Source of the DNA: a virus
Taxonomy: Duplodnaviria; Heunggongvirae; Uroviricota; Caudoviricetes
DNA: 64,000 bases
Reading direction: 5' to 3' (one strand)
IMG/VR virus record: IMGVR_UViG_3300031248_000001
Shown here: in pieces, positions 9,370-41,971 of the stretch
How positions within the stretch are numbered: the stretch's first letter is position 1
Layout: every line of letters starts with the position of its first letter
Made by a program: the position numbers and the translations under genes
Notes under the pieces: generated by a model
What the model was told of the DNA's origin: nothing
Seen by the model: only the letters and a program-made list of their open reading frames with translations
The model's database searches: none

Positions 9370-12300
9370 ATGACACCACCGCGCACCCCAGAAGAATGGG
9401 CCGCCCAGGTCATGCGCGAACACGCGGCGGCGAACCCGGTAGTCGAAGCCGCCCGCGCCCGTGCCGGTGAAGAGTGCGGACCGCTCGGCTGTTCCCGGTT
9501 CGCTTCCCGCGCCCTCAAAGACGCCGGCTACGACTTCGCCTCCGCCTCCTCGTCTGATCTCCGCCGCCAGATCCTCGCGCGCGGTGGGCAGGAAGTCCCC
9601 GACCCCCGCGCGGGTGACCTCTTCTTCCACGTCGGCGGTCCGACCGGCTACTCTCACGTGGGCGTAGTCGGCCAGGACGAGATTATCGACGCCCCCGGCC
9701 GTAGTGCCGCCTACCGCGCCCTGGTCCGCCGGGGCGCTCCCCGCAAGCCGTCCGTCTACGTGCGGCTCCCCGAAACCCCCAACGTCTCCGTCTCCAGCAC
9801 TTCGCGTGGCGCTCTCGCCTCCCGCGGCGGCACTCCTCCGCGTACGCCCGAAGAGTGGGCGCAGCAGCAGATCGCGGCCCAGGAAGCGAAGACCCCGGAG
9901 CAGTGGGCGGCGGAAGTCATCCGGCAGCGGATGAACGAGACGGAAGATCCGCGCATCACTGCCGTCCAACGCCGTGCCCAGGCCAAGCCCGGCTACACCC
10001 AGCAAGCCGCACAGGCCCCCGCACGTCCTGCGCCTGCTCTGGGGTCGGGGAAGACCCCCCGCGATTTCATAGGCGGCGTGCCGATCTTCGGCGGGATGCT
10101 GCAGGGCGAACTGGATCGGAACGCGGCCATTGAGCGGCAGTCCGGTCAGCGGATTCGCGGGATGATGCGCGGGCCTGCCCCGGCCGCGCCCTCGATGCGC
10201 GACCTTCTCAACCGCCCCACCCCCACGCGCGCTTACATCGAAGGCTTGACCTCGCCGGGTGCGGGGCAGCGGGCGAATGCGCGGGCGGCGACCCCGGAGC
10301 GACAGCGCGAGGTGCGCTACCAGGCGACCAGGAGCGCCCAGGCGTTCAACCCGTTCACGAACGATGTGGTAAGGCCGCGGACGGAGACGGAGAAGAACCT
10401 CGCGTATGCGGAGGGGGCGTTCCTGCCGAGCGGGCAGGCGGCCAAGAACACGGCGGAAGAGGCGTGGCGGCAGGCCGTGGCCGATGAGAAGTATCCCGCG
10501 CCCCCGCAGATTCCCGCGCACAAGAAGGCCGAGTATCTGAAGAAGATCCGGGCGGCGCTGCCCGCCTACAACCGCTACGTCGATGAGCAGCAGCGGTTGC
10601 TGGATCAGGCGCGGGAAGCGAGCTTGAAGGAGTATCAGCGGCGGGCGGCGCCCCTGCACGCCAGTTTCGATACGCCGGAGCGGGCAGCGGAGTTCGACCG
10701 GCTGGATGAAGAGCGCCGGCAGCGGGACGCCCGCATCCTTAAAGGCTTCCTGGCCCGGATGGAGCCGGAAGTGGTCTTGAAGTCGATGGGGGAGCTGACC
10801 CCACTCCAGCGTCAGGCACTGGCTGCGAAGGCGGGCGCCGATGTGGTCTGGACGCTGCAGTCCCCGAACATCCTGCGGAGCTACGTGTTCGATGCCGGGG
10901 TCACGGCGGTTGCCGACCGGATCGGGGCGGCGGCGGCCGTCAAGATCTTCTCGAAGACGCCGGCCGGACAGGCGGTGGTCCGGCGCCTGATGACCGAGGG
11001 GGCGATTGCGGGTGGCATCCAGCAGCCGGCGACGCGGGCCTTCGTGGACCCGAACGCGACTCCGCAGGACCTGGCCCTGGAGGCGCTGGCGGGGACGGCG
11101 GGCGGTGCGGTGTTCGGCGGGGTGGTCGGGGCGGCGGGGAAGGGCGCGCGGGCGGTGATGGGGCCGGTGGATGTGGGGGCGGTGCCGCGCCCGAAGGCGA
11201 CGAAGGGACGCGTGCCGGTGGTGAAGCCGAAGGCGCCGGTGCAGGCCGAGGCGCAGGCCGCCCCGATACCTGCGGAAGCGCCTGTAGCGCCCGTGGTGGT
11301 GGCGAAGGCGAAGGCGGCGGCGGTAGAGCCCGAGACGCCTGCGGCACCTCTTGCGAAGGCCAAGCCCCCTATCCAGGCACGCAACAAGGCGGAACTTGCC
11401 CGCGCCCTGGTGAAGCAGGCGGGCCTTCCGCCCGAACAGGCGCGGGCCGGCGCCGAGGTCTTCGACGCCGCCGCGCAGACCGCCGCGAAGCAGCAGGGCC
11501 TGCCCGTAGAAGAACTATACGGGCGTGTGTCGTATGCGAAGGGCGGGAAGGCGGCGGAAGGGGCGCTCCAGCAAGAAGGCAAGGCCCCAATCTTTTACTC
11601 CCAGCTATCCCGCGTGGTAGACGCGAAGATGCCGAACCGCGCGCCCGTGTCGCAACTGCGCGGGCTGCTGAACGGGGCGGGGGTCAAGGCCGAGGAGTTG
11701 AAGTGGACGGGGCTGGATGAGTTCCTGGGGGAGGCGGAGAAGGCGGGGCGGCCGGTCACGAAGGCGGAAGTGCAGGAGTGGCTGCGGGGGAATGCGGTGG
11801 AGGTGAGGGAGGTAACGAAGGGGGGAAGCGACCGCGCGGAAAGGGCACTGGCGGAACTTGGCTATGAGCCGGTTTGGAACGATGGAGCCTATCGTCTGCG
11901 GGATAGGGAAGGGAACGTTTACAGCTACCACGATCAAATTGAGGCTCCTCGCGGTGAACGTGACCGCATCATCATGGCCTGGGACGATCTGAACACACAG
12001 GACGCTACCCGCAGGCAGATGGGCACGGATACGAAGTTCGGCCAGTACACCCTCCCCGGCGGGAAGAACTACCGGGAGTTGCTGCTGACGTTGCCAGAAA
12101 CACAGGCAGCCAAGAAGTACCGCGCAGTCGTGGAAGAGATTAACCGTCGCGCTGATGCTGACCCCGAGATTGCTGCGTTGCGGGCGCGAGCGAAGAGGCT
12201 TCAGGATGCGGTAGAAGGTGCTTCTGATTTGGGGCAGGCGCGGGCAGCACGAGACGCGGCAGAGAACGCGCTCATCACGCTTCGCAATGAGCGACTTGGT

Positions 12301-15300
12301 GATTTGCAGGCAGAGGCTACCCGCCTCTCGGATGAGGATGCCCGCTCACGCTACCACTCCCCCCACTGGGACGAACCCAACGTCCTCGCCCACGTCCGGT
12401 TCGATGAGCGCGTGGATGCGGACGGGAAGCGGGTCCTGCACGTCGCGGAGATCCAGAGCGACTGGCACCAAGCGGGGAGGAAGAAGGGGTATAAGGGATC
12501 GCTCCCCGAAGGGCATCGCGTCCGCGAACTGGACCCTGAATCCCAGAACTACAAAGACGGGTTCCCGTTCGTCGTAGAGGATCGCAACCACTTCCCGCTT
12601 GCCGTGGGGCGAACACCGGAACAGGCGATTCGCAACATCGCAGGCCTGGCCCCAGCCGCCCCCTTTTCCAAGACCTGGCACGAACTCGCCCTGAAGCGGT
12701 TACTAAGATTCGCTGCCGAAAACGACTTCGAGCGGGTGACGTGGGACACGGGCCTCGAAAACGTCCGTCGCTATGAGGATGAGTTCCGCAAAAACGTTGA
12801 TGAGATCCAGTGGGAGGACACCGGCAACAAGCATCACGTGCGAGCGGTCAAGGACGGCAAGGTGGTCTACGAGGATGACTTCGATCCGACTACCGGCAAG
12901 GGCACCAAGACCTTCAGGGACGAAATTCCGTCGCTCGATGAGGTGGTGGGGAAGGACATCGCTAGTCAGATCCTAGAGAGCTCGGGAAGGGCGGAAGCCA
13001 GTAACTCGGCTTCGTGGTCGGGCAAAGACCTCACCATCGGCGGCGAGGGCATGAAGGGCTTCTACGATCAGATCCTGCCCGCTGCCGCCGCGAAGCTCGG
13101 GAAGAAGTGGGGGGCGAAGGTTGGGAAAGTGCAAGTCGGGGAACGCGATTTCGTCGAGGCAGTCAAAGGGCAGTACTTCGTGCGCGGCGCGGACGGTCGC
13201 CCCTACGGCGGCGGACTTTCGCGTGCGGAAGCCGAAGGATTGGCCCTCCGTGTAGGCGGCGACGTAGTGCCTGAACAGGCACCGGCCCGTCGTTTTGTAG
13301 ACGCCCACTCCCTCGACATCACCCCCGAAATGCGCCGCTCCGTCCTCACAGAAGGCCAACCCCTCTTCCAATCCACCAAGGCCTCCGTCGAATTCACCGA
13401 AACCAACGACGCCTTAATCCGTTTCTTCAAAGGCGCCGACCTCTCGTCTGCCCTGCACGAACACGGCCACGTCTTCCGCCGCTGGCTGCCCGAAGCCGAC
13501 CAGGCTATCGCCGCCGAGTGGGCGGGCGCCACGGATGGGAACTGGACGCGCCCGGCCGAAGAGAAGTTCGCGCGCGGCTTCGAACGCTACCTGCGGGACG
13601 GGAAGGCGCCGACCCCCGAGCTCAAGCAGGTGTTCGCGAAGGTGCGCGAGTGGCTGATCGGCATCTACCGGCGCATCAAGGGCAGCGATATCGATGTGGA
13701 AGTCTCGCCGGAGATGCGGGACTTGTTCGATAGGATGCTCGGTGGGGAGGGCGCGCTGGCGAAGAAGGTGGCCAGGGAGGCAAAGAAGCCGGGGCCGGAG
13801 TATGCCGCGTCGATCAATCTCGACAAGATTAACGCGCCCGAACCGCTGAAGGACCTGATCCGCGAGACGGCGGAAGCGAACGACCAGTGGCAGGCGCAGC
13901 GGCGCGGGACGAAGACCTGGGAAGAGACGCAGAAGCGGGCTAAGGAGTTGATCCGCACGGGCGTTATCACGCCCGAGTCCCTGAAGGGGGTCAAGCGTGG
14001 CACGGCCCTGAATGCGGAAGAGGTGCAGGCGGTGGCTACCCTGCACGTCCGCATGGGTGACGAGGTGCTGCAGGCGCGGAATGCCTACGAGGCGCACCCG
14101 ACCCCGGAGAACGAGGCTGCCGTCATCGCAGCGATCTCGCGGTTCGGGGTCGTAGAACGCACGCTGGCCGGAGCATCGTCGGAAGCGGGCCGGGCGCTGA
14201 ACATCCATCGGCTGGTCAAGGAGACGTATCAGGGGGTCGTGGGGACGGCGGAGCGGATGTTCGGCGAGGGGAAGGGGGAACCAGCGCGGAAGGCACGGCG
14301 ACCCGCCGATAAGCCGTTCACCGGGGAGCGGAACAAGGACTTCACGCCCGCACGCGCGAATGCGGCGCGCGACCGGCTGCAGAAGTTGGCGGGGATCGGC
14401 AAGGGGAAGGGGGAGCCCGAGGGGCCGCTGCGACAAGAGGCGATGACGCCGGAGGAGCGGGCGGCGGCCAAGCTGTTCGCGGAGAACCTGCCTGACCTCC
14501 GCGAGCTCGGCGGCTTCTACGTGGAGACTTACTTCCGCGATGAGGGAGTGCCGATCAACTTCCGCGAGTGGTCCGGCTTGATGCAGAAGGACCTGGGCGG
14601 GACTTTCACGGAGCCGCAACTGCGAACGCTCTGGGACCGCTACCTGAAGCCGGAGGCCGTGCAGCGGGCGAAGAGCCGCGTTACGCGGGACAAGGCGACG
14701 GAGAAGGTGCTGGAGGCGCTGGGCGGGAAGGACGCGCCGGAGGAGGTGCTTCGCAAGCTCGCCGCCTTCACCCCCGACGACACGGTAGGGCTGACCCAGT
14801 TCCTCCGTTCGCAGCAGCAGTGGACGTTCGCGGACCGGATGCACGCCTACTGGACGGCGAACATCCTCTCCGGGGTCCGCACGCAGGGGCGAAACATCGC
14901 CTCGAACGCCATCTTCGGGATCACGCAGATGCCCGTGCGGGCCGTGGCGGGCGCCGTGGACTTCGTAGCGACGGCGGGAGGGAAGGTTGGGGAGCGGCAG
15001 ATTTACGCTTCGGAGGCGCTTCCCGCCGCCGTGGGCTACCTGCGCGGGATGCCGGCAGGGTTCCGCAAGGCGGCGTACATCCTGCAGCACGGGTTCGGGA
15101 TCGAGGATGCCGGGAAGTTGGAGTTTCCGAACGTGCCCGAGTTCCGGGGCGGGGCGGCCAATCCGTGGAACCAGGTCGGTCGGATGCTCTCCGCGGCGGA
15201 CGCGCTTTTCAAGTCGATGTCCTACGAATCGGAACTCCACGCGCTGGCGACCCGGCAGGCGCTTCGGGAGGGACTGAAGGGGAAGGCGCTGAGCGAGCGC

Positions 15301-16542
15301 GTGACGGATCTGCTGCTGGCCGCTCCCGAGGCGCTCGTAGAGGGGGCGCAGAAGCGCGCGGGGTATGACACGTTCACGAGCGATCCGGACGCGGTAACGC
15401 GGCTCTTGATCGGCGTGCGGAACACGCGGGTCGGCGGGCTGCAGCCGGTCCGCTTCATCATGCCGTTCATGAACACCCCCGCCAACATCCTGAAGCGGTC
15501 TTTCGAGTTCAGCCCCGGCGGCGCGGCGCACGGCCTGGCGCTTCTGGCGAAGAAGGACCCCGAAGCGGCGCTGGTGACGGCGCGCGGGCTGGTCGGCAGC
15601 GCGGTGCTCGTCTACGCAGCGTCCCTGGCAGCGGGCGACAATCTGACGGGCGCGGCCCCGCAAGGAGATCGGGAGAAGGCGGAGTTCTACCGGCTCGGGA
15701 AGCAGCCGTATTCCGTGAAGGTGGGCGGGAAGTGGATGGACTACCGGACGCTCGGCCCCCTGGCCTTCCCGTTCGTGGTGGCAGCCGCCTTCCACGACGC
15801 TTACACGCGGGAGAAGAAGATCCCTGACAGCCAGCGGATCAGCGAGGCCGCGGGGGCGCTGGGGAAGTCCATCGTGGATCAGACCTTCTTTAAGGGCCTT
15901 TCCGATCTGGTGGAGGCGATAGAGAACCCGGGTCGCGCAGGCGGAAACCTGGTCGGCAACGTCGCTGGCGGGTTCGTCCCCCTCTCCGGCCTCGCCCGCA
16001 ACATCGCCCAATCTCAGGACCCGTACGTGCGCGACCCGCAGGGCATTTACGAACGCATCATCAAGGACCTGCCGTTGGTGTCGGGGCGAGTACCGGCACG
16101 GGTAGGGGCGCTAGGTGAAGACCTGCGCCGTCAGGGGAGTGAAGGGCTCCTCGCGCTTTCGCCTTCCGGGGTCTCGCCGGAGACTAAAGACCCGGTGAAC
16201 CGTGAGTTGGCCCGGCTTGGAGTGCGGCCCGGCCTGCCCGGCGATACGCTGACGATCCGCGGTGAGAAGACGAAACTGGAGCGCGATGTGGCGCGGGCTT
16301 ACAAGCAGATACCGGGGCGGCTGATCCGGCAGGAGATTGCGCGGCAGATCGGGACGCCGGGTTATGGGAAGGCGTCGGATGAGGCGCGGCAGAAAGCGTT
16401 GGAACGGCTTATCTCGCACCGGCGGAACCAGGCACAGGAGTTGGTGCGGGCGGCCTTGGCGGCGAAGCGCGATCCCGTGGTGCTGCTGCAGCGGTGGTAC
16501 GACGCGCAGGCACGGAACCTACCGGCGCTTCCCGAACAGTAG
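9370..16542 (+). CDS. giant multidomain virion-associated/polyvalent-like protein (2390 aa): N-terminal CHAP/NlpC-P60-like Cys-His peptidase, Ala/Pro/Lys linkers, internal HExxH zincin-like motif
   Basis: N-terminus has CGPLGCSRFASRALKDAGYDF...FHVGGPTGYSHVGVV. The motif TPPRTPEEWA occurs twice. Motif ALHEHGHVFRRW (HExxH). One uninterrupted ORF. Confidence 0.8.
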   Translation: MTPPRTPEEWAAQVMREHAAANPVVEAARARAGEECGPLGCSRFASRALKDAGYDFASASSSDLRRQILARGGQEVPDPRAGDLFFHVGGPTGYSHVGVVGQDEIIDAPGRSAAYRALVRRGAPRKPSVYVRLPETPNVSVSSTSRGALASRGGTPPRTPEEWAQQQIAAQEAKTPEQWAAEVIRQRMNETEDPRITAVQRRAQAKPGYTQQAAQAPARPAPALGSGKTPRDFIGGVPIFGGMLQGELDRNAAIERQSGQRIRGMMRGPAPAAPSMRDLLNRPTPTRAYIEGLTSPGAGQRANARAATPERQREVRYQATRSAQAFNPFTNDVVRPRTETEKNLAYAEGAFLPSGQAAKNTAEEAWRQAVADEKYPAPPQIPAHKKAEYLKKIRAALPAYNRYVDEQQRLLDQAREASLKEYQRRAAPLHASFDTPERAAEFDRLDEERRQRDARILKGFLARMEPEVVLKSMGELTPLQRQALAAKAGADVVWTLQSPNILRSYVFDAGVTAVADRIGAAAAVKIFSKTPAGQAVVRRLMTEGAIAGGIQQPATRAFVDPNATPQDLALEALAGTAGGAVFGGVVGAAGKGARAVMGPVDVGAVPRPKATKGRVPVVKPKAPVQAEAQAAPIPAEAPVAPVVVAKAKAAAVEPETPAAPLAKAKPPIQARNKAELARALVKQAGLPPEQARAGAEVFDAAAQTAAKQQGLPVEELYGRVSYAKGGKAAEGALQQEGKAPIFYSQLSRVVDAKMPNRAPVSQLRGLLNGAGVKAEELKWTGLDEFLGEAEKAGRPVTKAEVQEWLRGNAVEVREVTKGGSDRAERALAELGYEPVWNDGAYRLRDREGNVYSYHDQIEAPRGERDRIIMAWDDLNTQDATRRQMGTDTKFGQYTLPGGKNYRELLLTLPETQAAKKYRAVVEEINRRADADPEIAALRARAKRLQDAVEGASDLGQARAARDAAENALITLRNERLGDLQAEATRLSDEDARSRYHSPHWDEPNVLAHVRFDERVDADGKRVLHVAEIQSDWHQAGRKKGYKGSLPEGHRVRELDPESQNYKDGFPFVVEDRNHFPLAVGRTPEQAIRNIAGLAPAAPFSKTWHELALKRLLRFAAENDFERVTWDTGLENVRRYEDEFRKNVDEIQWEDTGNKHHVRAVKDGKVVYEDDFDPTTGKGTKTFRDEIPSLDEVVGKDIASQILESSGRAEASNSASWSGKDLTIGGEGMKGFYDQILPAAAAKLGKKWGAKVGKVQVGERDFVEAVKGQYFVRGADGRPYGGGLSRAEAEGLALRVGGDVVPEQAPARRFVDAHSLDITPEMRRSVLTEGQPLFQSTKASVEFTETNDALIRFFKGADLSSALHEHGHVFRRWLPEADQAIAAEWAGATDGNWTRPAEEKFARGFERYLRDGKAPTPELKQVFAKVREWLIGIYRRIKGSDIDVEVSPEMRDLFDRMLGGEGALAKKVAREAKKPGPEYAASINLDKINAPEPLKDLIRETAEANDQWQAQRRGTKTWEETQKRAKELIRTGVITPESLKGVKRGTALNAEEVQAVATLHVRMGDEVLQARNAYEAHPTPENEAAVIAAISRFGVVERTLAGASSEAGRALNIHRLVKETYQGVVGTAERMFGEGKGEPARKARRPADKPFTGERNKDFTPARANAARDRLQKLAGIGKGKGEPEGPLRQEAMTPEERAAAKLFAENLPDLRELGGFYVETYFRDEGVPINFREWSGLMQKDLGGTFTEPQLRTLWDRYLKPEAVQRAKSRVTRDKATEKVLEALGGKDAPEEVLRKLAAFTPDDTVGLTQFLRSQQQWTFADRMHAYWTANILSGVRTQGRNIASNAIFGITQMPVRAVAGAVDFVATAGGKVGERQIYASEALPAAVGYLRGMPAGFRKAAYILQHGFGIEDAGKLEFPNVPEFRGGAANPWNQVGRMLSAADALFKSMSYESELHALATRQALREGLKGKALSERVTDLLLAAPEALVEGAQKRAGYDTFTSDPDAVTRLLIGVRNTRVGGLQPVRFIMPFMNTPANILKRSFEFSPGGAAHGLALLAKKDPEAALVTARGLVGSAVLVYAASLAAGDNLTGAAPQGDREKAEFYRLGKQPYSVKVGGKWMDYRTLGPLAFPFVVAAAFHDAYTREKKIPDSQRISEAAGALGKSIVDQTFFKGLSDLVEAIENPGRAGGNLVGNVAGGFVPLSGLARNIAQSQDPYVRDPQGIYERIIKDLPLVSGRVPARVGALGEDLRRQGSEGLLALSPSGVSPETKDPVNRELARLGVRPGLPGDTLTIRGEKTKLERDVARAYKQIPGRLIRQEIARQIGTPGYGKASDEARQKALERLISHRRNQAQELVRAALAAKRDPVVLLQRWYDAQARNLPALPEQ

Positions 16543-16680
16543 GGCGTAGGCGACGAGGGCGATGAGGGCGGCCGACCAGAGTGGTTCTGCTTCTGGACCG
16601 CCTATCCAGGCGAGGAATTGGGTCACGTCTTCATCCCCGCCCCGCCTCCTCCCCCGCTTCGCGCGGCTCCTCGGTCCCCC

Positions 16681-16914
16681 TCAACACACGAACAACCAAT
16701 GCTGGTGCGTCTCCGGATGGTCGTGGCAGGTGCACCCGTTCGGCGTGCCGTCGCGGAAGTCTTCGTCAGATAACGTCCACGGCCCGACCCCCGTAGGATG
16801 CTCGGCGTTCAGACGCGCCGCCGTTTCTTCCACGGGCAGCGCGCTGCACACGCTGGCGTGGACGAGGCCCACGGCGTAGGCGATGAATGCTGGTGCGGTC
16901 TCTTCCGTCTTCAT
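16681..16914 (-). CDS. small Cys/His-rich hypothetical protein
   Basis: MKTEE start is preceded by GGGGGAAAG. C-terminus NGCTCHDHPETHQHWLFVC. Confidence 0.35.
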   Translation of the reverse strand: MKTEETAPAFIAYAVGLVHASVCSALPVEETAARLNAEHPTGVGPWTLSDEDFRDGTPNGCTCHDHPETHQHWLFVC

Positions 16915-17177
16915 CTTTCCCCCGGTCAACACGAACACGAGAACGCCCGCGGCCGGTGCGGGGGCCAAGCACAGAGCGTCACAGCCGCCGCAACACCAGC
17001 CACACAACAGCGATAGTGACGAGCCCCGCCGCTGCCTGGCCGAGCAGAGCTCCCTGTATCGCGGGCGGTAGTTCCCAAGGCCACATCCTCACTCCTCCTG
17101 GCCGGCATCACGCCGGGCGGTCTCGTCCAGCAGCGTGCCGATCAGTGTCTGGGTGTCAGTCATCCTTCTTTCCCCCC

Positions 17178-17210
17178 AATCCCCCGGCAATCCCCCGGCA
17201 ATCCCCCCGA
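17178..17210. repeat. tandem 11-bp direct repeat (aatcccccggc x ~3) in non-coding region
   Basis: Sequence ccaatcccccggcaatcccccggcaatccccccg, read directly. Confidence 0.6.
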
Positions 17211-17226
17211 TGCGTGGGGGATGCTC

Positions 17227-17646
17227 CTACTCGCTCTCGGCTACTATCCGGACAGGCCTGTAAGCGTCTTGGGCCATCCCCTCCACCGCGTTCAACTCAT
17301 CTTCGGAAAGCAGGCTCACTTGGGCGTGCTGCGCGACAGCCTCCGTGTAGTGCCTGGACGCCCTCTCTAGAGCCTCGCGTGCCTGTTCTATTTCGGCTTT
17401 GCACCGCTCTACCGTCTTTTCGGCGGCGGCGGGTGTTGGCAACAGCCACGGCGCGGGGCCTCTGGTTGAAATGCCGGAGTTCCAACCACGCCCGTCCTGT
17501 CCAGTCGCCGCTATCCGATACCGCTCTAACTTCCCTTGTTCGACATGCTCTGTCCAGCGCCGGAGTTCCTCAACTACCCGCGCACGATCATACTTCTGCA
17601 TGCGGACATCGACGGTGACCACGATTTCGTCTCGTTCGGCTTGCAT
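17227..17646 (-). CDS. hypothetical protein (139 aa), member of SPFH-led minus-strand cassette
   Basis: ORF co-oriented with the cassette; no recognised domain. Confidence 0.5.
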   Translation of the reverse strand: MQAERDEIVVTVDVRMQKYDRARVVEELRRWTEHVEQGKLERYRIAATGQDGRGWNSGISTRGPAPWLLPTPAAAEKTVERCKAEIEQAREALERASRHYTEAVAQHAQVSLLSEDELNAVEGMAQDAYRPVRIVAESE

Positions 17647-17722
17647 CCTACCCCTCCTCCCCTCCCTTAACCTTCCCCCACCGCCGCCCGCAGCCCCGCC
17701 ACCGCGTCCGATACCGGCACAG

Positions 17723-18094
17723 TCACGGCGTTTCCCCGGTCGCCTTGGCTAGGGCTGCGCGGGCCACCCCTCGGGCATCATTTAGCGTGTAAAAGGCGTG
17801 GTCTGTGATCGGATTCGCCGTCCGCTCCAAGAGCATCTCCACGGCCTGGATAAGGTCGGGCACCGCCGTGATAGCCCGCATCACGTCCTCAGGGCCGTCC
17901 ACGTCCGTGCAGTCGATGAACCCGCCGCCGAAGAGCACGCACTCATCCCCCGCGTAAAGGTGGGTGTCCGTGTCCCCCAGCGCGTAGGGATCTTCACGCC
18001 ACTCCCACGTTCGGCGCAGGCGGTCTGTGGGTTGCTTCCCCTCGCTCATCCCCTCGCTCCTTCCGACCGCCTTCCCCTCCGGCTTGGTGGTCAT
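17723..18094 (-). CDS. hypothetical protein (123 aa), cassette member
   Basis: Its start overlaps the stop of the upstream gene by 4 bp (translational coupling). Confidence 0.5.
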   Translation of the reverse strand: MTTKPEGKAVGRSEGMSEGKQPTDRLRRTWEWREDPYALGDTDTHLYAGDECVLFGGGFIDCTDVDGPEDVMRAITAVPDLIQAVEMLLERTANPITDHAFYTLNDARGVARAALAKATGETP

Positions 18095-18336
18095 CCCCTC
18101 GCCTCCCGCCGCTCTTCCCTTGCCCGGTAATCCGTATCCACCTCCCGCAGGTAGCTGTTCACCAGCCCCGCCGTGACGTGGCCCCGCCCTGCCACCCGAT
18201 CAATCGTCTTCTGGATCTGCTCCGGCCGCTCCCCGGCTCGGAGCAGGGCGTCGATGCGGTCACAGAGCGCCGGGTGCTGCTCGCGGAGGATGTTGGCCAG
18301 GGCGCTGCGGGCTTCGGATTGGAACTGGGTGCTCAT
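18091..18336 (-). CDS. hypothetical protein (81 aa), cassette member
   Basis: GAGGAG site precedes the ATG; coupled to the downstream gene. Confidence 0.5.
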   Translation of the reverse strand: MSTQFQSEARSALANILREQHPALCDRIDALLRAGERPEQIQKTIDRVAGRGHVTAGLVNSYLREVDTDYRAREERREARG

Positions 18337-18383
18337 CGGCTCTTTCTCCTCTTCGTCTCCCGGCGGCGGGGGGGGGCTAGAAC

Positions 18384-19268
18384 CTACTCCTTCGTCATCA
18401 GTGATCGCACGTCAACGATGTTGCCGCCGCTAGAGCCGACCACAGGCAGTTTGCCGTCCCACTTCTCGATCCACTCGCGAGCCAGCACCTTTGCCCCGCC
18501 CTGACTATTGAGCGCTGCCGCCCGCACGCGATGTGATTCAGCCTCGCCCTTCGCCTTAGCGATGGCGGTCTCGGCTTCCATCTTGGCCTTCGATAGCACG
18601 TACCGCTGCTTTTCGCTTTCCTGCTGGGCGACCTGCTTTTGCTCGATGGCCTTGTTGAACTCGTCGGAGAAGTCGAAGTTGGTGAGGCTTACGCCGCCGG
18701 GCTCGACCGCGATGTTGTAGACGGCGAGGCGCTGGGTAAGGCTCGTGTCCACAGACGCTTTGACCTGCTCGCGGTTGCGGATCAGTTCCTCAGCGGTGTA
18801 GCGGCTCACGACCGCCTTTAGTGTTTCCTGCACGGCGGGTTGGATCACGCGGGCATCGTAGCCAATGCCGACCGTCTTATAGAGCGCCCCCACCTGCGCC
18901 GGGTCCAGATGGAAGTTGATCGCTACGTCAGTGTGGACGATCTGCAGGTCCTTGCTCGCGGCCTGTGCCTTGGCGTCGGAACGCTGCGTGCGAACCTCCA
19001 TGCGTTCTACGCCCTGCATAACCGGCATGATGAAGTGCGCCCCTTCCGAAAGCACCCCCTTGACCGCCCCGAACTGCAGCAGCACGCCGCGATGGCCCGC
19101 CGGGATGCCGACGTAACTCGCCAGCGGTATCCCGATGAGTAGCAGTGCCACGCCGCCCGCTGCGAGGCCGCCCTTGAGCCTCCGGTAGTGCTGACCGTCG
19201 ATCTCCTGCGGGAACGCGATGCCCGCCACGACCAGTAAGACCCCTGCCACCATCAACAGTATGCCCAT
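18384..19268 (-). CDS. SPFH/band-7 (prohibitin/HflC-like) membrane protein
   Basis: N-terminal TM helices followed by a PHB domain (…HFIMPVMQGVERMEVRTQRSD…TAEELIRNREQVKASV…) and a coiled-coil C-terminus. AAAGGA precedes the ATG. Confidence 0.85.
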   Translation of the reverse strand: MGILLMVAGVLLVVAGIAFPQEIDGQHYRRLKGGLAAGGVALLLIGIPLASYVGIPAGHRGVLLQFGAVKGVLSEGAHFIMPVMQGVERMEVRTQRSDAKAQAASKDLQIVHTDVAINFHLDPAQVGALYKTVGIGYDARVIQPAVQETLKAVVSRYTAEELIRNREQVKASVDTSLTQRLAVYNIAVEPGGVSLTNFDFSDEFNKAIEQKQVAQQESEKQRYVLSKAKMEAETAIAKAKGEAESHRVRAAALNSQGGAKVLAREWIEKWDGKLPVVGSSGGNIVDVRSLMTKE

Positions 19269-19321
19269 CGTGTTTCCTTTCGGTATCGTCTAAATCTCTC
19301 GTAGTCAGTATAGCCGCAGTA

Positions 19322-19351
19322 TTGACAGGTCGTCAAGTCCCGCGCTATACT
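19322..19351 (+). promoter_or_regulatory. sigma-70-like promoter (TTGACA-18 bp-TATACT) for the early-left RHH gene
   Basis: Consensus -35/-10 hexamers read directly. GGAGAAG site and ATG at 19374 lie downstream. Sits in the divergent intergenic region opposite the SPFH gene. Confidence 0.5.
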
Positions 19352-19373: not shown

Positions 19374-19661
19374 ATGGGCGATACTATGACGATACAGACC
19401 GTGACGAAGAGGGTTCGCCCCTTGGCTAAGACGCCTGCCAGTTTCAAGCTCAACCCCGCGACACTGGAGAAGCTGAAGGATCTCTCCAAGGCCACGTCCC
19501 GCAGTCAGGCGGGGGTGCTGGATGATCTGATACTCCGAGAGCACGCGCGGGTGATGACGGACACGGATGCGCGGCTCCGACAGGTTGAGGAGCGGTTAGC
19601 GCGGCTGGAGGCGGCACCCCCACCGCCCCCCGACCGGGACGGCGGAGACGGACAACAATGA
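19374..19661 (+). CDS. ribbon-helix-helix (CopG/Arc-like) DNA-binding protein
   Basis: RHH-like N-terminus (…FKLNPATLEKLKDLSKATSRSQAGVLDDLI…). Confidence 0.55.
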   Translation: MGDTMTIQTVTKRVRPLAKTPASFKLNPATLEKLKDLSKATSRSQAGVLDDLILREHARVMTDTDARLRQVEERLARLEAAPPPPPDRDGGDGQQ

Positions 19662-25155: not shown

Positions 25156-26658
25156 TTAAACCCGCCACACGATCTCCAGGTCGTACCGCCCGCGCTCCGG
25201 GTAGGTCGTCAGTCGGATTCGCTCGATCAGCGCCGCGCACGCTTCCTGCCGCGCCAGCGGGTCCGGACCCGCCCCTAGCGCTTCTCTGACCGCCCGCGCC
25301 AATTCCGCCCGCTCCAGCCCCCGCTCCTCCGGTTCCTCTCCCTCTAGCGCCGCCCAGCGCTCCGTCAACAGGGCTTGCTCCGCCTGCACCTCCGCGAGCT
25401 GCCGGTCCAACTCCGCCTCCGTAATGACGCCGCGCCGGTAAAGGGACAGGACCCGCTCTCGTTCCCCGGACTTCGCGTCGATCCGCGCCCGCAGCACCTC
25501 GCGCTCCCTCGCCCGCTCCGCTTCCTGCACCCGCCGACTTTCCGCCTGCCCCGCCAGGCTGGCGTCCACCGCCTCCTCCGTCCGCAGCCACGCCTCGACT
25601 TCCTGCCAGACCGCCTCCTCGATCCGTTCCGCGGCCACCAGCTTCCCCGCGCATTTCGGCCGGTAGCGCCAGCCGTGGCACATATAATAATGGTAGCCCG
25701 AGGTTTGCGGCCAGCCGTGGTAGCGCCGACCGCAGGCGCCGCAGACGAGCAGGCCCCGGAGCAGATAGATGCGTTCGTTCGGACGGGTGCGCGGGCTCCG
25801 GTTCCGCACGAGCACGGCCTGGACCGCCGCCCAGGTCCGGTCATCCACGAGCGCCGGGCACGCCTGCTCTACACCTCTCCGCAGGCGCACCCCCTTGTAC
25901 GTGGTATTCCGGAGAATCTGCCGCACCGTGTTCGGCTGCCAGCGCCCGGAGTAGGGGCGGCCGGTGCGGTAGTGGGTGACGGCACGACCCGCCCAGGCCG
26001 TGGGGACGGCGAGCGCGTTGAGGTAGTCGGCGAGCTTGATGCAGCTCCAGCCCTGGGCCGCCAACTCGAACAGCCCCCGGACGATCCGAGCCTCCTCCTC
26101 GCAAGGCACGATATAGGAGCCGGTCTCCCGCACCTCCACTGCATACCCGTAAGGGGGCCGCGCGCCACCCATCCAGCGTGCCGGCTCCGCGTGCGCCCGG
26201 TGCATCCCTGCCCGGACCCGCTCCGCTATCGAGTCGCGCTCCCAGGCGGAGACGACGGCCAGGAAGCCGATCATCGCCCGGCCACTCGGAGAGGTGGAGT
26301 CGAAAGATTCCGTCACGGAGACGACCGCGCAGCCTGCCTCCGCCAGCGCGTGGATCGCGTTATGCGTCACGCGGATGTCGCGCCCGAGCCGGTCCAACCG
26401 ATACAGATAGACGGTGGTGATGCGGCCGGCACGGGCGGCGGCCAGGAGCGCCGCGCCGCCAGGTCGTCGTTCGAGCGGGATGGTGCCGGAGATTCCGTCA
26501 TCGAGGAACGTCTCCGCAAAGGTGAGCCCGCGCAGGGTGGCGTAGCGGCGGGCTTCGTCTATCTGCGTGTTGATGGTCTGGCGTTCGGCCTGCTCCGTGC
26601 TGGAGACACGGGCATAGAGCGCGTCACTCCCCCCGCCAGACCCGCACGGCCCGCTCAT
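25156..26658 (-). CDS. large serine recombinase (phage integrase)
   Basis: N-terminal resolvase domain (ALYARVSSTEQ…RLDRLGRD), recombinase domain, Cys-rich zinc ribbon and coiled-coil C-terminus; 500 aa. Confidence 0.9.
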   Translation of the reverse strand: MSGPCGSGGGSDALYARVSSTEQAERQTINTQIDEARRYATLRGLTFAETFLDDGISGTIPLERRPGGAALLAAARAGRITTVYLYRLDRLGRDIRVTHNAIHALAEAGCAVVSVTESFDSTSPSGRAMIGFLAVVSAWERDSIAERVRAGMHRAHAEPARWMGGARPPYGYAVEVRETGSYIVPCEEEARIVRGLFELAAQGWSCIKLADYLNALAVPTAWAGRAVTHYRTGRPYSGRWQPNTVRQILRNTTYKGVRLRRGVEQACPALVDDRTWAAVQAVLVRNRSPRTRPNERIYLLRGLLVCGACGRRYHGWPQTSGYHYYMCHGWRYRPKCAGKLVAAERIEEAVWQEVEAWLRTEEAVDASLAGQAESRRVQEAERAREREVLRARIDAKSGERERVLSLYRRGVITEAELDRQLAEVQAEQALLTERWAALEGEEPEERGLERAELARAVREALGAGPDPLARQEACAALIERIRLTTYPERGRYDLEIVWRV

Positions 26659-26887: not shown

Positions 26888-27388
26888 CTACTCCGCCATC
26901 TTCTGCCGCCGCTGTTCCGTCCGAAGAATCCGCACGGCGCGGTTCAGGATCTCCAGGTCGGAAGGGGTCAGGTCGTCGTCGCCGGTGCGCTGCTCGACCT
27001 TCAGGTGTTCAAGGTCGGCGTCGTATTCGAGGGGTTCGCGGGTGGCGGCGTCTAGGATCGCGGCGGCGGGGTCCTGGCCGATCTGGCGGAGCGCTTCGCG
27101 GGCTGCGGCTTCAGCGATAGCTTGGCGTTCGTCCACAGGGGCAGGGCCACCGTAGCCAGCTAGCGCCAGCCATTCGTCCCGGTCCAGGCTGTATGCCTGG
27201 ATCAGCCGCTCTATGAACTCGCGGCTAGGTCGTTCGCCTCGAAGAATCTGACCAATCCGCCCGCCGGTATATCCCAGCCTGCGCCCTACGTCACCTTGCG
27301 CTTCACCTGCGACCAATTCACGGAACCGGCGGCTAAACCCGGAGAGCGGTGGGCCTGGCATAGTAACCACTTCTGTAAGGACACTCAT
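26888..27388 (-). CDS. XRE-family HTH repressor (cI-like)
   Basis: HTH QGDVGRRLGYTGGRIGQILRGERPS. Divergent from a cro-like gene and adjacent to the integrase. Confidence 0.65.
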   Translation of the reverse strand: MSVLTEVVTMPGPPLSGFSRRFRELVAGEAQGDVGRRLGYTGGRIGQILRGERPSREFIERLIQAYSLDRDEWLALAGYGGPAPVDERQAIAEAAAREALRQIGQDPAAAILDAATREPLEYDADLEHLKVEQRTGDDDLTPSDLEILNRAVRILRTEQRRQKMAE

Positions 27389-27498
27389 ACTTACGCAGAA
27401 CGGCAGTAGCAGGAAAAAGTTTCCTGCAAAACCTGCAACCTTAGAAGGACTTCTGCCGTCAATTGCAGTAGAAGTAAGAGACGCGGCTTCTTGTAGCA
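27389..27498. promoter_or_regulatory. divergent cI/cro-type control region with candidate operator repeats
   Basis: Repeats GCAGTAG x2, CCTGCAA x2 and inverted ACGGCAG…CTGCCGT. Lower GC than the flanks. Confidence 0.4.
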
Positions 27499-27747
27499 AT
27501 GACAAACGGACAGATACCAGAGACCGGCCCGGAGCTCCGGGCACTGCGGATCGAGGGAGAGCTTTCCCTGGTGACGGTCGCCGAGGGGCTGGGCGTGAAC
27601 CGCACGATGCTCTCTAACTGGGAGCGCGGGATGGCGATGCCCGCTGACGTGCCCGCCCGTTACCGCAAGCTCGTGCAGGAGTTGACAGCGGCGCGGGCAG
27701 CGAAGGTGCGCGAGCGGTGCCGCAAGCCGCGGAGGGCGGAGGCGTGA
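27499..27747 (+). CDS. XRE-family HTH protein (Cro-like)
   Basis: LSLVTVAEGLGVNRTMLSNWERG. Confidence 0.65.
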   Translation: MTNGQIPETGPELRALRIEGELSLVTVAEGLGVNRTMLSNWERGMAMPADVPARYRKLVQELTAARAAKVRERCRKPRRAEA

Positions 27748-28889
27748 GCCGGAAGCACGCCAATCAGCCCGGTCTGCTCGAAGTCCCGCCCGCCTGGTCG
27801 GAGAAGTGGCAGGGCATGCCCGAGTTCGATCAGCCGAACCAGATGCCGTGGCAGTCGATCAAGGTCCACTTCCGCAACGCCGAGGACCGGCAGGCGTTTG
27901 CAGACCTTATCGGCCAGCCGGTCTACTCGCGGACGAAATGCGTCTGGTTCCCGAAGGCTGAGATCGGGCGCATCGCGGATAAGCGATACCGCGCTCGTTC
28001 CGAAGTCCTCCCGCAATACCCGGTCTACGTCATCTCGAAAGGGCGCTGGAAATTCCGACATACCGCGAAGGCGCTTGAGGCTATGAGAGTGCCTTACCGC
28101 ATTGTAGTTGAGCCGCAAGAGTTCGATCTTTACGCCGAGCACATCCCTGCCGTGAAGATCCTGACCCTGCCCTTTAGCAACCTCGGCCAGGGGTCGATCC
28201 CGGCTCGGAATTGGGTGTGGGAGCACGCGGTATCCGAAGGAGCCGAGCGTCACTGGATATTAGATGACAACATCTATGCCTTCTTCCGTCTCAACCGTAA
28301 TCTAAGAGTTAAGTGCGAGACCGGAGCGACCTTTCGAGCGGCTGAAGAGTTCACCGACCGCTATGAGAATGTAGGGCTGTCTGGCTTCAACTACAAGATG
28401 TTTGCCAAGCGGAAAGACGACATCCCGCCCTACGTCCTGAACACCCGCATCTACTCCTGCATCCTCATTCGTAACGACATCCCGTTTCGCTGGCGAGGCC
28501 GGTACAACGAGGACACGGACCTCTCTCTTCGCGTGCTTAAAAGCGGTCTTTGCACGATCTTGTTCAACGCCTTCCTTGCCGACAAGGCAACGACGATGAC
28601 GACAAAGGGCGGGAACACGGACGAGCTTTATCAGGACGACGGGCGGCTCAAGATGGCCGAGTCTCTCGCGGAGCAGCACCCTGACCTCGTGAAGATCACC
28701 GAGAAGTGGGGCCGACCGCAGCATAGCGTCAATTACCACGTGTTTCGGCACAACCGGCTGAAGCGGAAGCCGGGCGTTGAGCCGAGCGAGGGCGTTGACG
28801 ACTTCGGGATGAGCCTGGAGTTCATCGCTCCGAACGGAAACGGGCACGAGCCGGTCTGTGACGGCCTCTTCGCGGAGGCCCAACTGTGA
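27717..28889 (+). CDS. GT-A-fold-like putative glycosyltransferase (function uncertain), first gene of the early-right operon
   Basis: GTG start overlaps the cro-like stop. Conserved-looking blocks YVISKGRW…RVPYRIVVEP…WILDDNIYAF…GFNYKMFAKR. No TM segment. Confidence 0.4.
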   Translation: MPQAAEGGGVSRKHANQPGLLEVPPAWSEKWQGMPEFDQPNQMPWQSIKVHFRNAEDRQAFADLIGQPVYSRTKCVWFPKAEIGRIADKRYRARSEVLPQYPVYVISKGRWKFRHTAKALEAMRVPYRIVVEPQEFDLYAEHIPAVKILTLPFSNLGQGSIPARNWVWEHAVSEGAERHWILDDNIYAFFRLNRNLRVKCETGATFRAAEEFTDRYENVGLSGFNYKMFAKRKDDIPPYVLNTRIYSCILIRNDIPFRWRGRYNEDTDLSLRVLKSGLCTILFNAFLADKATTMTTKGGNTDELYQDDGRLKMAESLAEQHPDLVKITEKWGRPQHSVNYHVFRHNRLKRKPGVEPSEGVDDFGMSLEFIAPNGNGHEPVCDGLFAEAQL

Positions 28890-40828: not shown

Positions 40829-41971
40829 GTGATGATGCACTGCGGCAGCCTCTTCTCGGGCGGCGGGTTAGCGGACCTGGGCCTGGTCGCCGCTGGCTAT
40901 ACGCCTGTGTTCGGCGTCGAGTATGACGCGGCGATAGCGGAATGCTACGCGGCGAACGTCGGCCCGCACGTCACGGTCGGCCGCGTGGAGGAGCAGGACT
41001 ATCGGGGTTGGACGGATCTGGACCTGGCCTGGGCCTCCCCGTCCTGCGTGCGGGCCAGCGTAGCGAATGCGAACGCGGGCGAGACGGAAGAGGACCGGAA
41101 GGCGGCGGCGGCGGTGTGCCGGTCCCTGTGGGATGCGCGGCCGGCCCGCTTCGTGTTGGAGAACGTATCCGGATACCGGGCCTGGGAGAGCTTTCGGATG
41201 ATCGTGCGGACCTTGCTGGAGTTAGGCTATGCCGTGGATTGGGGGCTCCACAACGCGGCCGACTACGGCGTGCCCCAGACCCGCCGCCGCTTGATCCTCC
41301 GAGCCCTCCGTGACGCGCGCTACGTGCCGCCGCTGTGCCCGACGTATGACGAGCGGCCGATGAGCGCGGGCCTGTTCGAAGAGGTGTCGCCGCTCTTGCC
41401 CTGGCAGGGCTGGTACGCGGCGGTGGAGGACCTGCTGGACGGGCTGCCCGAGAGCCGGTTTGCCGCCTGGCAGCTCGCGCGTCTTCCCGAGAGCTTGGGG
41501 ACCTACCTGGTCGGTGGGAGCAACACGAGCGACGAACAGGCCGCGCCTGGGGTAGGGGTGAGCGGGCAGGCGGAGCCTGCCCGCTGCGTGGCGGGGAACT
41601 CGGATCGGTGGCGGGCGGTGTTGGTGGACAATGGCAACCCTAACCGAAACGGCGGGATAGTCCACACCGCAAATCAACCGTGTGTCACTGTCTTGGCTCA
41701 GGCTGATCGCGTTCCATTACGTGCCTTCCTCGTAGAAGACCGGCGCGCCTCCGGGTTCGCCAACGAGACGGTGCGTGCTTCCGATACGCCGCCCCGCGCC
41801 TGGCTCGAACAGGGCCGCGTCGTGCAAATGAACGCCCGCTGCCTGGCGCGGTTCCAGTCCGTGCCCGACAGCTACGCGCTGCCCGAGAAGAACAAGACCG
41901 CTTACAGAGTTATCGGCAATGGGGTCCCGCCGTTGTTTAGCCAGCGGATTGCGGAGAGCCTACACCGATGA
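40829..41971 (+). CDS. DNA (cytosine-5)-methyltransferase
   Basis: Motif I LFSGGGLADLG, PSC-type motif IV, ENV (FVLENVSGY), QTRRRLIL, C-terminal GNGVPPL. Confidence 0.8.
   Translation: MMMHCGSLFSGGGLADLGLVAAGYTPVFGVEYDAAIAECYAANVGPHVTVGRVEEQDYRGWTDLDLAWASPSCVRASVANANAGETEEDRKAAAAVCRSLWDARPARFVLENVSGYRAWESFRMIVRTLLELGYAVDWGLHNAADYGVPQTRRRLILRALRDARYVPPLCPTYDERPMSAGLFEEVSPLLPWQGWYAAVEDLLDGLPESRFAAWQLARLPESLGTYLVGGSNTSDEQAAPGVGVSGQAEPARCVAGNSDRWRAVLVDNGNPNRNGGIVHTANQPCVTVLAQADRVPLRAFLVEDRRASGFANETVRASDTPPRAWLEQGRVVQMNARCLARFQSVPDSYALPEKNKTAYRVIGNGVPPLFSQRIAESLHR

What the first reader, a model, noticed from the sequence alone, without database searches (positions are those of the whole stretch)
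16681..19330. Minus-strand accessory cassette led by an SPFH/band-7 protein with four uncharacterised partners, between the virion genes and the early genes
Five co-oriented, translationally coupled genes read opposite to both flanking modules and in the same orientation as the integrase and cI-like repressor. This suggests lysogeny-phase expression. The first gene is an unmistakable SPFH/prohibitin-family membrane protein; the other four have no recognisable domains. One of them (16681-16914) has a Cys/His-rich C-terminus. Phage-borne SPFH proteins with private partner genes could modulate membrane proteases (HflK/C-FtsH logic in the lambda cII decision) or act as an abortive-infection or superinfection-exclusion module. 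I cannot assign this gene combination to any described system from sequence alone.
Basis: partly seen in the sequence, partly recalled or inferred. Interest (0 to 1): 0.72.

Follow-up and report, generated by a model that had tools for sequence, protein, structure and literature searches.

The report
Phage copy of host prohibitin gene
A temperate phage, probably of Armatimonadota bacteria, carries a copy of its host's prohibitin-type membrane-scaffold gene at the head of a separately promoted block of small orphan genes, but the downstream genes are not conserved partners, so this is an ordinary accessory ("moron"-like) block and not a new multi-gene system.

Summary
The gene block is real. 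On the minus strand, 19268-16519, there is an SPFH/prohibitin gene followed by 81-, 123-, 139- and 77-aa genes and up to three tiny ORFs. Only one junction is translationally coupled.

The SPFH protein is a stand-alone prokaryotic prohibitin (SPFH4 type), not HflK/C. It nests with 50/50 bootstrap support among chromosomal genes of Armatimonadota, so it is host-derived.

The "private partners" idea fails:
- Across 105 independent SPFH loci (25 viral, 80 genomic), no homologue of the 81-, 123- or 139-aa proteins lies nearby.
- The 77-aa protein lies near an SPFH gene in only one locus.
- That 77-aa Cys/His protein belongs to a widespread uncharacterised phage family (440 clusters). In 10 of its 11 other contexts there is no SPFH gene nearby.
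- No PADLOC defence model matches any protein in the block.

New here: the block has its own near-consensus sigma70-type promoter. It overlaps a divergent twin promoter inside a 45-bp palindrome, and the twin reads into an operon led by a possible Arc-like (RHH) gene.

Phage prohibitin genes are already known (phrog_200; 479 phage records) and have been discussed in print as morons that might act on FtsH.

Verdict: a new member of a known kind. Interest is low to moderate.

The parts
19307..19336 (-). Promoter-like site for the block: TTGACG, 18-nt spacer, TATACT
   Evidence: It matches 10 of 12 consensus positions. It is one of only four sites with at least 10/12 in the 64-kb window. It lies 39 nt upstream of the SPFH start codon.
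19322..19351 (+). Divergent twin promoter (TTGACA, 18-nt spacer, TATACT) overlapping the block's promoter. Together they form the 45-bp palindrome 19307-19351.
   Evidence: It matches 11 of 12 positions. The inverted repeats are AGTATAGC/GCTATACT and TTGAC-N5-GTCAA.
19374..19661 (+). First gene of the divergent operon: a 95-aa possible ribbon-helix-helix (Arc-like) regulator and candidate binder of the palindrome
   Evidence: Pfam RHH_3 scores 19.8 bits against a cut-off of 21.6. PHROG Arc-like repressor E = 1.1e-3. Both are sub-threshold, so the assignment is tentative.
18384..19268 (-). Prohibitin-type SPFH protein, 294 aa, with two N-terminal hydrophobic segments
   Evidence: Pfam Band_7 E = 5e-35. 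phrog_200 E = 3e-46. The best solved relatives are prohibitin 1/2, E = 2.5e-35. TM segments at residues 1-19 and 31-49. It falls in the Armatimonadota clade with 50/50 bootstraps.
18091..18336 (-). 81-aa orphan protein
   Evidence: No family hit. No tblastn hit in 50,697 phage records. It has a G-rich ribosome-binding site and high GC3.
17723..18094 (-). 123-aa protein whose start overlaps the stop of the 81-aa gene (ATGA)
   Evidence: phrog_1273 (unknown function) E = 7e-7. Only itself was found in the 5.8-billion protein set. The AF2 single-sequence model is poor, pLDDT 47.
17227..17646 (-). 139-aa orphan protein whose C-terminal half gives only weak matches to helical and coiled-coil families
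   Evidence: Only sub-threshold hits. No phage tblastn hit.
17177..17207 (.). Perfect 11-nt tandem repeat (2.8 copies) in the intergenic spacer
   Evidence: TRF score 62, 100% matches. Function unknown.
17089..17163 (-). 24-aa ORF (doubtful gene)
   Evidence: It has a ribosome-binding-site-like upstream sequence. It was not called by the metagenome gene callers.
16979..17086 (-). 35-aa single-TM ORF
   Evidence: Called as a gene in three of the four longer metagenome copies (L005, L007, L008). It has one hydrophobic segment.
16681..16914 (-). 77-aa member of a widespread uncharacterised small phage protein family (consensus ASVC...PTG...W...PNPxPC...HxLFxC)
16519..16626 (-). 35-aa single-TM ORF with a GTG start, overlapping the 3' end of the convergent 2390-aa gene (doubtful)
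   Evidence: ORF list, hydrophobic segment. Not called by the gene callers.

Best explanation
The block is a moron-like accessory operon of a temperate phage, probably a phage of Armatimonadota.

Its first and only recognisable effector is a host-derived, stand-alone prokaryotic prohibitin (SPFH4 type). Transcription starts at a near-consensus sigma70-type promoter. That promoter overlaps a divergent twin promoter within a 45-bp palindrome, and the twin drives an operon led by a possible Arc-like RHH protein. The RHH protein is the likely common regulator of both promoters.

The proposed mechanism is inferred. The phage prohibitin inserts in the inner membrane through its N-terminal hydrophobic hairpin. 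It then assembles, alone or mixed with the host paralogue, into the ring or cage typical of SPFH proteins. That would change access of the membrane AAA+ protease FtsH, or of other membrane clients, to their substrates during infection or lysogeny.

The downstream genes are not dedicated partners. They are lineage-specific small genes plus one member of a widespread family of small early phage proteins that happens to sit in the same transcription unit.

Shown: gene structure, family assignments, host-like phylogeny, lack of conserved neighbours, and promoter architecture. Inferred: cage assembly, the FtsH link, regulation by the RHH protein, and expression timing.
For: - SPFH assignment: Pfam Band_7 E = 5e-35 and phrog_200 E = 3e-46.
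- Prohibitin type: prohibitin 1/2 are the closest solved structures. HflK and HflC models score far below their cut-offs (49 vs 159 bits; 31 vs 134 bits).
- Host origin: the 80 closest genomic loci are led by Armatimonadota chromosomal genes at 46-63% identity over the full length, and these sit among housekeeping genes.
- The window protein falls within the Armatimonadota identity range (median 62%), against at most 42.5% to other phyla. The bipartition is supported in 50/50 bootstraps.
- No conserved neighbour exists around 25 viral SPFH loci or in the Armatimonadota loci.
- No homologue of the 81-, 123- or 139-aa proteins occurs in 1.29 Mb of flanks from 119 loci.
- The p77 family sits in early or recombination modules without SPFH in 10 of 11 other contexts.
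- Promoter pair. Only four such sites exist in the whole window.
- SPFH4 p-prohibitins are single-gene units, and related SPFH classes bind FtsH (PMC2636767). Prohibitin and HflK/C cages regulate m-AAA/FtsH (PMC13376388, PMC12048511).
- Phage prohibitin genes have been described as morons (PMC10269572, PMC5834331).
Against: - No expression data exist, and timing (early lytic versus lysogen) is unknown.
- No terminator was recognised at the end of the block, and its GC content does not differ from the rest of the phage. Two classical moron hallmarks are therefore missing.
- FtsH interaction has not been shown for any SPFH4 protein (PMC2636767) or for any phage SPFH.
- The RHH assignment is sub-threshold.
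- One other viral contig (L002) carries both a close SPFH (60% identity) and a p77 homologue 2 kb apart. This hints at some linkage that the 'unrelated passengers' view does not predict.
Confidence: 0.6

Rival explanations
1. The block is a prophage-encoded defence module (abortive infection or superinfection exclusion). The SPFH ring acts as a membrane sensor or effector, and the small proteins, including the two TM peptides, act as accessory components.
For: - It has its own strong host-type promoter and an orientation opposite to the neighbouring modules. It also has the same orientation as int and cI.
- It is rich in membrane proteins: the SPFH protein and two 35-aa TM ORFs.
- Phage morons often exclude other phages (general knowledge).
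Against: - No PADLOC model hits any of the nine proteins tested, even at E <= 1.
- The gene set is not conserved anywhere else. Real defence systems normally recur as conserved gene sets.
- The SPFH gene is an orthologue-like copy of a host housekeeping gene.
Confidence: 0.1
2. There is a two-gene functional module. The prohibitin and the 77-aa CCHC-type protein work together, for example with the small protein as an adaptor or client of the cage. The genes between them are interchangeable filler.
For: An otherwise unrelated 124-kb viral contig (L002/L013, GC 40%) carries a 60%-identical SPFH and a 52-55%-identical p77 homologue 2 kb apart on the same strand. No other window protein has a match in the 15 kb of that contig that was examined. 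Both families are rare enough that chance adjacency is not very likely.
Against: - p77 is absent from the other 104 independent SPFH loci.
- SPFH is absent within 6-8 kb in 10 of 11 other p77 contexts.
- The L002 p77 is not the closest relative of the window p77. Others reach 62-65% identity without an SPFH neighbour; for example P0195 lies in L122.
- The host chromosomal prohibitin loci have no p77.
Confidence: 0.12
3. The block is part of the lysis or lysis-timing apparatus. The small TM proteins would act as holin, antiholin or spanin-like factors, and the SPFH protein would modulate membrane integrity.
For: - No endolysin or holin was recognised anywhere else in the window.
- The block contains two single-TM peptides.
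- It lies directly after the virion genes.
Against: - There is no muralytic domain in the block.
- Its orientation is opposite to the late genes, and it has a host-type promoter of its own.
- The two TM ORFs are very short. One overlaps the convergent virion gene and was not called by the gene callers.
- A cluster of TM proteins at 46.3-48.6 kb is an alternative candidate lysis region.
Confidence: 0.05

Closest known systems
Prokaryotic prohibitins (SPFH4, 'p-prohibitins') of Hinderhofer et al. 2009 (PMC2636767) and eukaryotic prohibitin 1/2
   Same: - It has a Band_7 domain followed by a helical region, and an N-terminal membrane anchor.
- The best sequence matches among solved structures are PHB1/PHB2.
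- It is a single gene without an NfeD partner.
- The closest relatives are chromosomal Armatimonadota genes.
   Different: It is encoded by a phage and expressed from a phage promoter. Only one subunit type is present, whereas eukaryotic PHB is a PHB1/PHB2 heteromer. FtsH binding is untested.
Phage-borne SPFH/prohibitin 'moron' genes (phrog_200; e.g. Burkholderia phage CSP3 orf75, Stenotrophomonas phage DLP5)
   Same: - It belongs to the same family: 43% identity to the CSP3 protein, and 479 phage records carry a homologue.
- It is a stand-alone gene among small hypothetical genes.
- The same speculative link to HflK/C-FtsH-cII has been proposed (PMC10269572).
   Different: - This copy clusters with the host phylum's own gene, not with other phage copies.
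- It heads a divergently promoted operon with a palindromic twin promoter.
- None of its neighbours is shared with those phages.
E. coli HflK/HflC-FtsH complex
   Same: It belongs to the SPFH superfamily, and a cage-forming modulator of FtsH is the best available functional analogy (PMC12048511).
   Different: It fails the HflK and HflC equivalog cut-offs. It is a single gene, not an hflK-hflC pair. It is not adjacent to hflX or ftsH.
P22 immI region (Arc/Mnt with overlapping divergent promoters Pant/Pmnt). This comparison rests on recalled knowledge, not on a test.
   Same: Two overlapping divergent promoters sit in a palindromic region, next to a small gene for a possible ribbon-helix-helix protein.
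   Different: The RHH call is sub-threshold. No antirepressor is recognised. The operator function of the palindrome is untested.

Membership tests
SPFH / Band 7 superfamily | Match to the SPFH domain model above the curated threshold | tested here: met
   PF01145 scores 121.5 bits against a cut-off of 23.6, covering residues 55-242.
Prokaryotic prohibitin (SPFH4) | Closer to prohibitins than to the HflK/C, stomatin or flotillin classes | tested here: met
   All eight PDB matches at E <= 0.001 are prohibitin 1/2 chains, the best at E = 2.5e-35. HflK and HflC models score only 49 and 31 bits.
Prokaryotic prohibitin (SPFH4) | Single-gene unit without an NfeD partner | tested here: met
   No NfeD hit in any neighbour at E <= 1. 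No recurrent neighbour in 25 viral loci or in the Armatimonadota loci.
Prokaryotic prohibitin (SPFH4) | Membrane anchoring and ring/cage oligomerisation | not testable with these tools
   Two N-terminal hydrophobic segments are predicted. Oligomer state is unknown.
HflK / HflC | Score above the TIGR01933 / TIGR01932 equivalog cut-offs | tested here: not met
   49.4 bits against 159.4, and 30.7 bits against 134.4.
HflK / HflC | Paired hflK-hflC genes | tested here: not met
   There is only one SPFH gene in the block.
SPFH-NfeD operon (SPFH1/2/5) | Adjacent NfeD-family gene | tested here: not met
   No NfeD match in Pfam, NCBIfam or PHROGs for any neighbour.
Known anti-phage defence systems (PADLOC-DB v2) | Any component matching a defence-system model | tested here: not met
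   Zero families at E <= 1 for all nine proteins.
Phage moron | Own promoter, independent of the flanking operons | tested here: met
   A site matching 10 of 12 sigma70 consensus positions lies 39 nt upstream of the SPFH start codon. It is one of four such sites in 64 kb. This is a consensus match only.
Phage moron | Own terminator | tested here: inconclusive
   No convincing intrinsic terminator at the 3' end, and the last ORF overlaps the convergent gene.
Phage moron | Deviant base composition | tested here: not met
   GC is 0.64-0.67 across the block, against about 0.65 in the window.
Phage moron | Expression from the prophage | not testable with these tools
   This needs lysogen transcriptomics.
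   The 81-, 123- and 139-aa proteins appear in 0 of 105 SPFH loci, and p77 in 1 of 105.
p77 small-protein family (uncharacterised, no Pfam entry) | Conserved ASVC...W...C...H...C signature over about 70 residues | tested here: met
   The profile search gives 440 clusters. The invariant residues C23, W46, F53, G56, C63 and H72 are all present in the window protein.

The most novel reading that the evidence does not exclude
Phages of Armatimonadota have repeatedly captured and kept the host's own prohibitin. The three examples are this temperate phage, a 347-kb jumbo contig and a 124-kb contig, which share no other detected genes in the flanks examined. In this reading the viral copy builds a decoy or hybrid SPFH cage that reprogrammes FtsH-dependent proteolysis and so biases the lysis-lysogeny decision or membrane homeostasis. 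In some lineages it would act with the small CCHC-type p77 protein, and it would be switched by an Arc-like repressor at a palindromic twin promoter.
Probability: 0.15. Interest if true: 0.6.

Novelty: new member of a known kind. Interest (0 to 1): 0.3.

Why it matters
Phage SPFH/prohibitin genes are common (phrog_200), yet none has a demonstrated function. This case offers a clean host link: an Armatimonadota-type prohibitin inside a temperate phage. It also offers a well-defined promoter architecture that makes expression timing easy to test.

The negative result is also useful. The neighbouring genes should not be annotated or pursued as a multi-gene 'SPFH system'.

As a by-product, the 77-aa gene defines a large small-protein family. 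It has 440 clusters, a confidently predicted fold and conserved Cys/His residues, and it has no Pfam entry.

Tried and rejected
- DNA similarity of the 4-kb region to 50,697 phage records found nothing.
- tblastn of the 123-, 77-, 139- and 81-aa proteins against cultured phages found nothing.
- The word-indexed protein search found only self for the 123-aa protein, and self plus one relative for p77.
- Scans for p77 in viral and metagenome contigs gave only a handful of loci. The genome scan gave none.
- A search for relatives of the phage through the C-terminal 500 aa of the giant virion protein found none, so synteny in related phages could not be examined.
- The AF2 single-sequence model of the 123-aa protein was unusable (pLDDT 47).
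- The afdb50 library was not available.
- Rfam found nothing in the region.
- I looked for a shared operator between the cI/cro region and the block's promoter. None is visible, and the TTGAC-N5-GTCAA palindrome is unique in the window.
- I looked for a lysis cassette elsewhere, to rule out the lysis reading. None was recognised, so that rival is only weakly disfavoured.
- Assignment to HflK/C was rejected on the curated cut-offs.
Full report
**1. What is in the sequence**

The window is a temperate tailed phage. It has a large serine recombinase (25156-26658, -), a cI-like HTH_31 gene (26888-27361, -) and a cro-like HTH_3 gene (27499-27747, +). It also has a TET-associated glycosyltransferase, Rad52, a C5 methylase and a large terminase (54523-56748, +). 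A 2390-aa ORF (9370-16542, +) ends the virion module.

Between that giant gene and a + strand operon that starts at 19374 lies the reported minus-strand block:
- SPFH, 19268-18384, 294 aa
- p81, 18336-18091
- p123, 18094-17723
- p139, 17646-17227
- p77, 16914-16681

Metagenome gene callers made the same calls on five independent contigs that carry this phage. All five contigs are 100% identical to the window over the block.

There are also three tiny ORFs with ribosome-binding-site-like leaders:
- 24 aa (17163-17089)
- a 35-aa single-TM peptide (17086-16979), called in three of the four longer copies
- another 35-aa TM ORF (16626-16519), which overlaps the end of the convergent giant gene

Only the p81/p123 junction overlaps (ATGA). 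The remaining gaps are 47-76 nt, or about 310 nt between p139 and p77. 'Translationally coupled' is therefore mostly wrong.

**2. The lead gene**

The 294-aa protein is unambiguously SPFH: Pfam Band_7 at 121 bits and phrog_200 at E = 3e-46. It has two N-terminal hydrophobic segments.

Among solved structures, every match at E <= 0.001 is a prohibitin 1/2 chain (best 2.5e-35). The HflK and HflC equivalog models score 49 and 31 bits against cut-offs of 159 and 134. It is therefore a prohibitin-type protein, the 'SPFH4 / p-prohibitin' class of Hinderhofer et al. That paper describes the class as single-gene units with no NfeD partner and an FtsH link that is still unproven (PMC2636767).

A scan of one genome per species returned 80 loci:
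- The best roughly 40 are almost all Armatimonadota (Capsulimonas, Chthonomonas, Fimbriimonadaceae, Armatimonadaceae). They share 46-63% identity over the full length, including the N-terminal anchor.
- In those genomes the gene sits among housekeeping genes resembling (read from their sequences, not tested) a radical-SAM methylthiotransferase, LpxK and acyl- and heptosyl-transferases. No neighbour is conserved across the loci.
- None of the other 234 window ORFs tested has a match in those loci, so they are not prophages of this type.

In a neighbour-joining analysis the window protein groups with the Armatimonadota sequences in 50 of 50 bootstraps. So do the proteins of two other viral contigs, L001 (347 kb) and L002 (124 kb). 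The window protein's identity to Armatimonadota sequences reaches 62%, which lies within their own range (median 62%). Its identity to the Clostridia, archaeal and other viral sequences in the set is at most 42.5%.

The gene is therefore host-derived, and the host is most probably an Armatimonadota bacterium. The host assignment is an inference.

**3. Are the downstream genes partners?**

I tested this from both sides.

From the SPFH side:
- 25 viral loci of this subfamily, with 6-kb flanks, contain no homologue of p81, p123, p139 or the tiny ORFs at phmmer E <= 10. They contain a p77 homologue only in L002.
- All-against-all clustering of the flanking ORFs found no family that recurs beyond sets of near-identical phages.
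- The 80 genomic loci add nothing.
- The two closest annotated phages, Burkholderia phage CSP3 and MW202545, show the gene among replication and hypothetical genes. No neighbour resembles the window's.

From the partner side:
- p123 hits only phrog_1273 (unknown function, E = 7e-7). It found only itself in the 5.8-billion protein set.
- p81, p123 and p139 have no tblastn match in cultured phages.
- p77 is different. An exhaustive profile search found 440 clusters at E <= 1e-3 and 148 at E <= 1e-10. None carries a Pfam domain or a name other than 'hypothetical'.
- The p77 family is about 70-80 aa long. C23, W46, F53, G56, C63 and H72 are invariant, and C77 is nearly invariant.
- AlphaFold2 with 72 sequences gives a confident small alpha/beta domain (pLDDT 94). 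It has no close solved or viral structural relative.
- A CCHC metal site is a reasonable guess but was not tested.

Eleven independent p77 contexts were read (L002, L011, L014, L037-L040, L121-L124). Ten have no SPFH gene within 6-8 kb; in L014 only 1.6 kb upstream of p77 was available. In those ten contexts p77 lies in arrays of small early genes next to these functions:
- DUF3799/PD-(D/E)XK, RecT/YqaJ and RusA
- a DNA ligase (read from the sequence, not tested)
- integrase, WhiB or Lsr2

These come from phages and prophages of several phyla.

Only L002 pairs p77 with a close SPFH (60% identity) 2 kb away. The genes in between are unrelated to the window's. That single recurrence keeps a two-gene link alive as a minority reading. 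However, the closest p77 relatives (62-65% identity) have no SPFH neighbour where context exists.

No PADLOC model matches any protein of the block.

**4. How the block is expressed**

The 105-nt spacer between the SPFH start (19268) and the first + strand gene (19374) contains two overlapping divergent promoter-like sites:
- TTGACA, 18-nt spacer, TATACT on the + strand (19322-19351), matching 11 of 12 positions
- TTGACG, 18-nt spacer, TATACT on the - strand (19336-19307), matching 10 of 12 positions

Together they form a 45-bp palindrome: AGTATAGC-N7-TTGAC-N5-GTCAA-N7-GCTATACT. The TTGAC-N5-GTCAA core occurs exactly once in the window.

In the whole 64 kb, on both strands, only four sites reach 10 of 12. 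The other two also precede minus-strand genes, at 52.6 and 53.7 kb. The block is therefore an independent unit read by the host RNA polymerase.

The first gene of the divergent operon is a 95-aa protein with sub-threshold ribbon-helix-helix (Arc-like) matches. I infer that it binds the palindrome and regulates both promoters, as Arc does in the P22 immI region. That comparison comes from recalled knowledge and was not tested here.

The cI/cro spacer carries a different palindrome, GCAGGAAAAAGTTTCCTGC. Control by the main repressor is therefore not evident.

Whether the block is on in lysogens, early in infection, or both cannot be decided from sequence.

**5. Most likely mechanism**

By analogy with HflK/C and the prohibitins, the phage protein would assemble into a membrane-anchored ring or cage. 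Those proteins build such cages around FtsH or the m-AAA protease and gate substrate access (PMC12048511, PMC13376388). The phage protein is about 60% identical to the host's own subunit, so it could co-assemble with it or replace it.

The plausible outcomes are altered turnover of membrane proteins or of a phage regulator, as in the lambda cII logic, or maintenance of membrane function during infection. The cII idea has already been proposed for phage CSP3 (PMC10269572). All of these steps are inferred.

I put 0.6 on the overall reading, a stand-alone host-derived prohibitin moron with passenger genes. I give the rivals much less: defence module 0.1, SPFH+p77 pair 0.12, lysis apparatus 0.05.

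**6. Comparison and novelty**

Phage-borne prohibitin genes are well known as annotations. 479 of 50,697 phage records carry a homologue. The family is phrog_200, and the genes are called morons in the CSP3 and DLP5 papers.

What is specific here:
- the clear host-clade origin in a little-studied phylum
- apparent parallel carriage by three viral contigs that share no other detected genes in the flanks examined
- the palindromic twin-promoter arrangement

This is a new member of a known kind, not a new system. Interest is 0.3.

Noticed in passing
window 19307-19351: A 45-bp palindrome holds two overlapping divergent near-consensus sigma70-type promoters (11/12 and 10/12). It lies next to a possible Arc-like RHH gene (19374-19661) and looks like a small genetic switch separate from the cI/cro region.
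   Followed up: partly
window 52634-52662 (-) and 53663-53691 (-): These are the only other promoter-like sites in the window that match at least 10 of 12 positions. Both lie ahead of other minus-strand genes (an HTH_17 protein at 51793-52335 and small ORFs), so minus-strand units in this phage seem to carry the strongest host-type promoters.
   Followed up: no
window 17177-17207: A perfect 11-nt tandem repeat (CAATCCCCCGG, 2.8 copies) lies in the spacer after the 139-aa gene. Its function is unknown.
   Followed up: no
window 27409-27427: The cI/cro intergenic region carries its own palindrome, GCAGGAAAAAGTTTCCTGC, with nearby CTGCAA/TTGCAG repeats. These are probably operators and are unrelated to the palindrome at 19.3 kb.
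   Followed up: no
window 27717-28889 and 40829-41971: A TET-associated glycosyltransferase (TAGT, E = 2e-47) and a C5 cytosine methylase suggest a DNA hypermodification pathway in this phage.
   Followed up: no
window 9370-16542: The 2390-aa ORF that ends the virion module has no Pfam hit over its full length, and its first 377 residues have no PHROG hit. Its N-terminus looks like an NlpC/P60-type hydrolase by eye only.
   Followed up: partly
window 56660-57889: A 409-aa ORF after the terminase contains a Cpn10/GroES-like domain (E = 7e-14).
   Followed up: no
whole window: No endolysin or holin family was recognised. A cluster of small TM proteins at 46.3-48.6 kb is the best candidate for the lysis region.
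   Followed up: partly
L001 5998-6888 and L046: The SPFH of a 347-kb jumbo viral contig is 85% identical to one on an 11-kb contig binned as Fimbriimonadales. This is either a host link for a jumbo phage or a mis-binned phage contig.
   Followed up: no
P0075 (representative library): A 1070-aa protein matches the p77 profile in 8 separate stretches. Several other hits carry the domain at the C-terminus of proteins of 130-480 aa. These fusions might hint at the family's function.
   Followed up: no
L039 5550-6240: In one phage contig the p77 homologue directly follows, and overlaps, a gene with a Tad3 (anti-Thoeris-like) Pfam hit inside a RecT/YqaJ early module.
   Followed up: no
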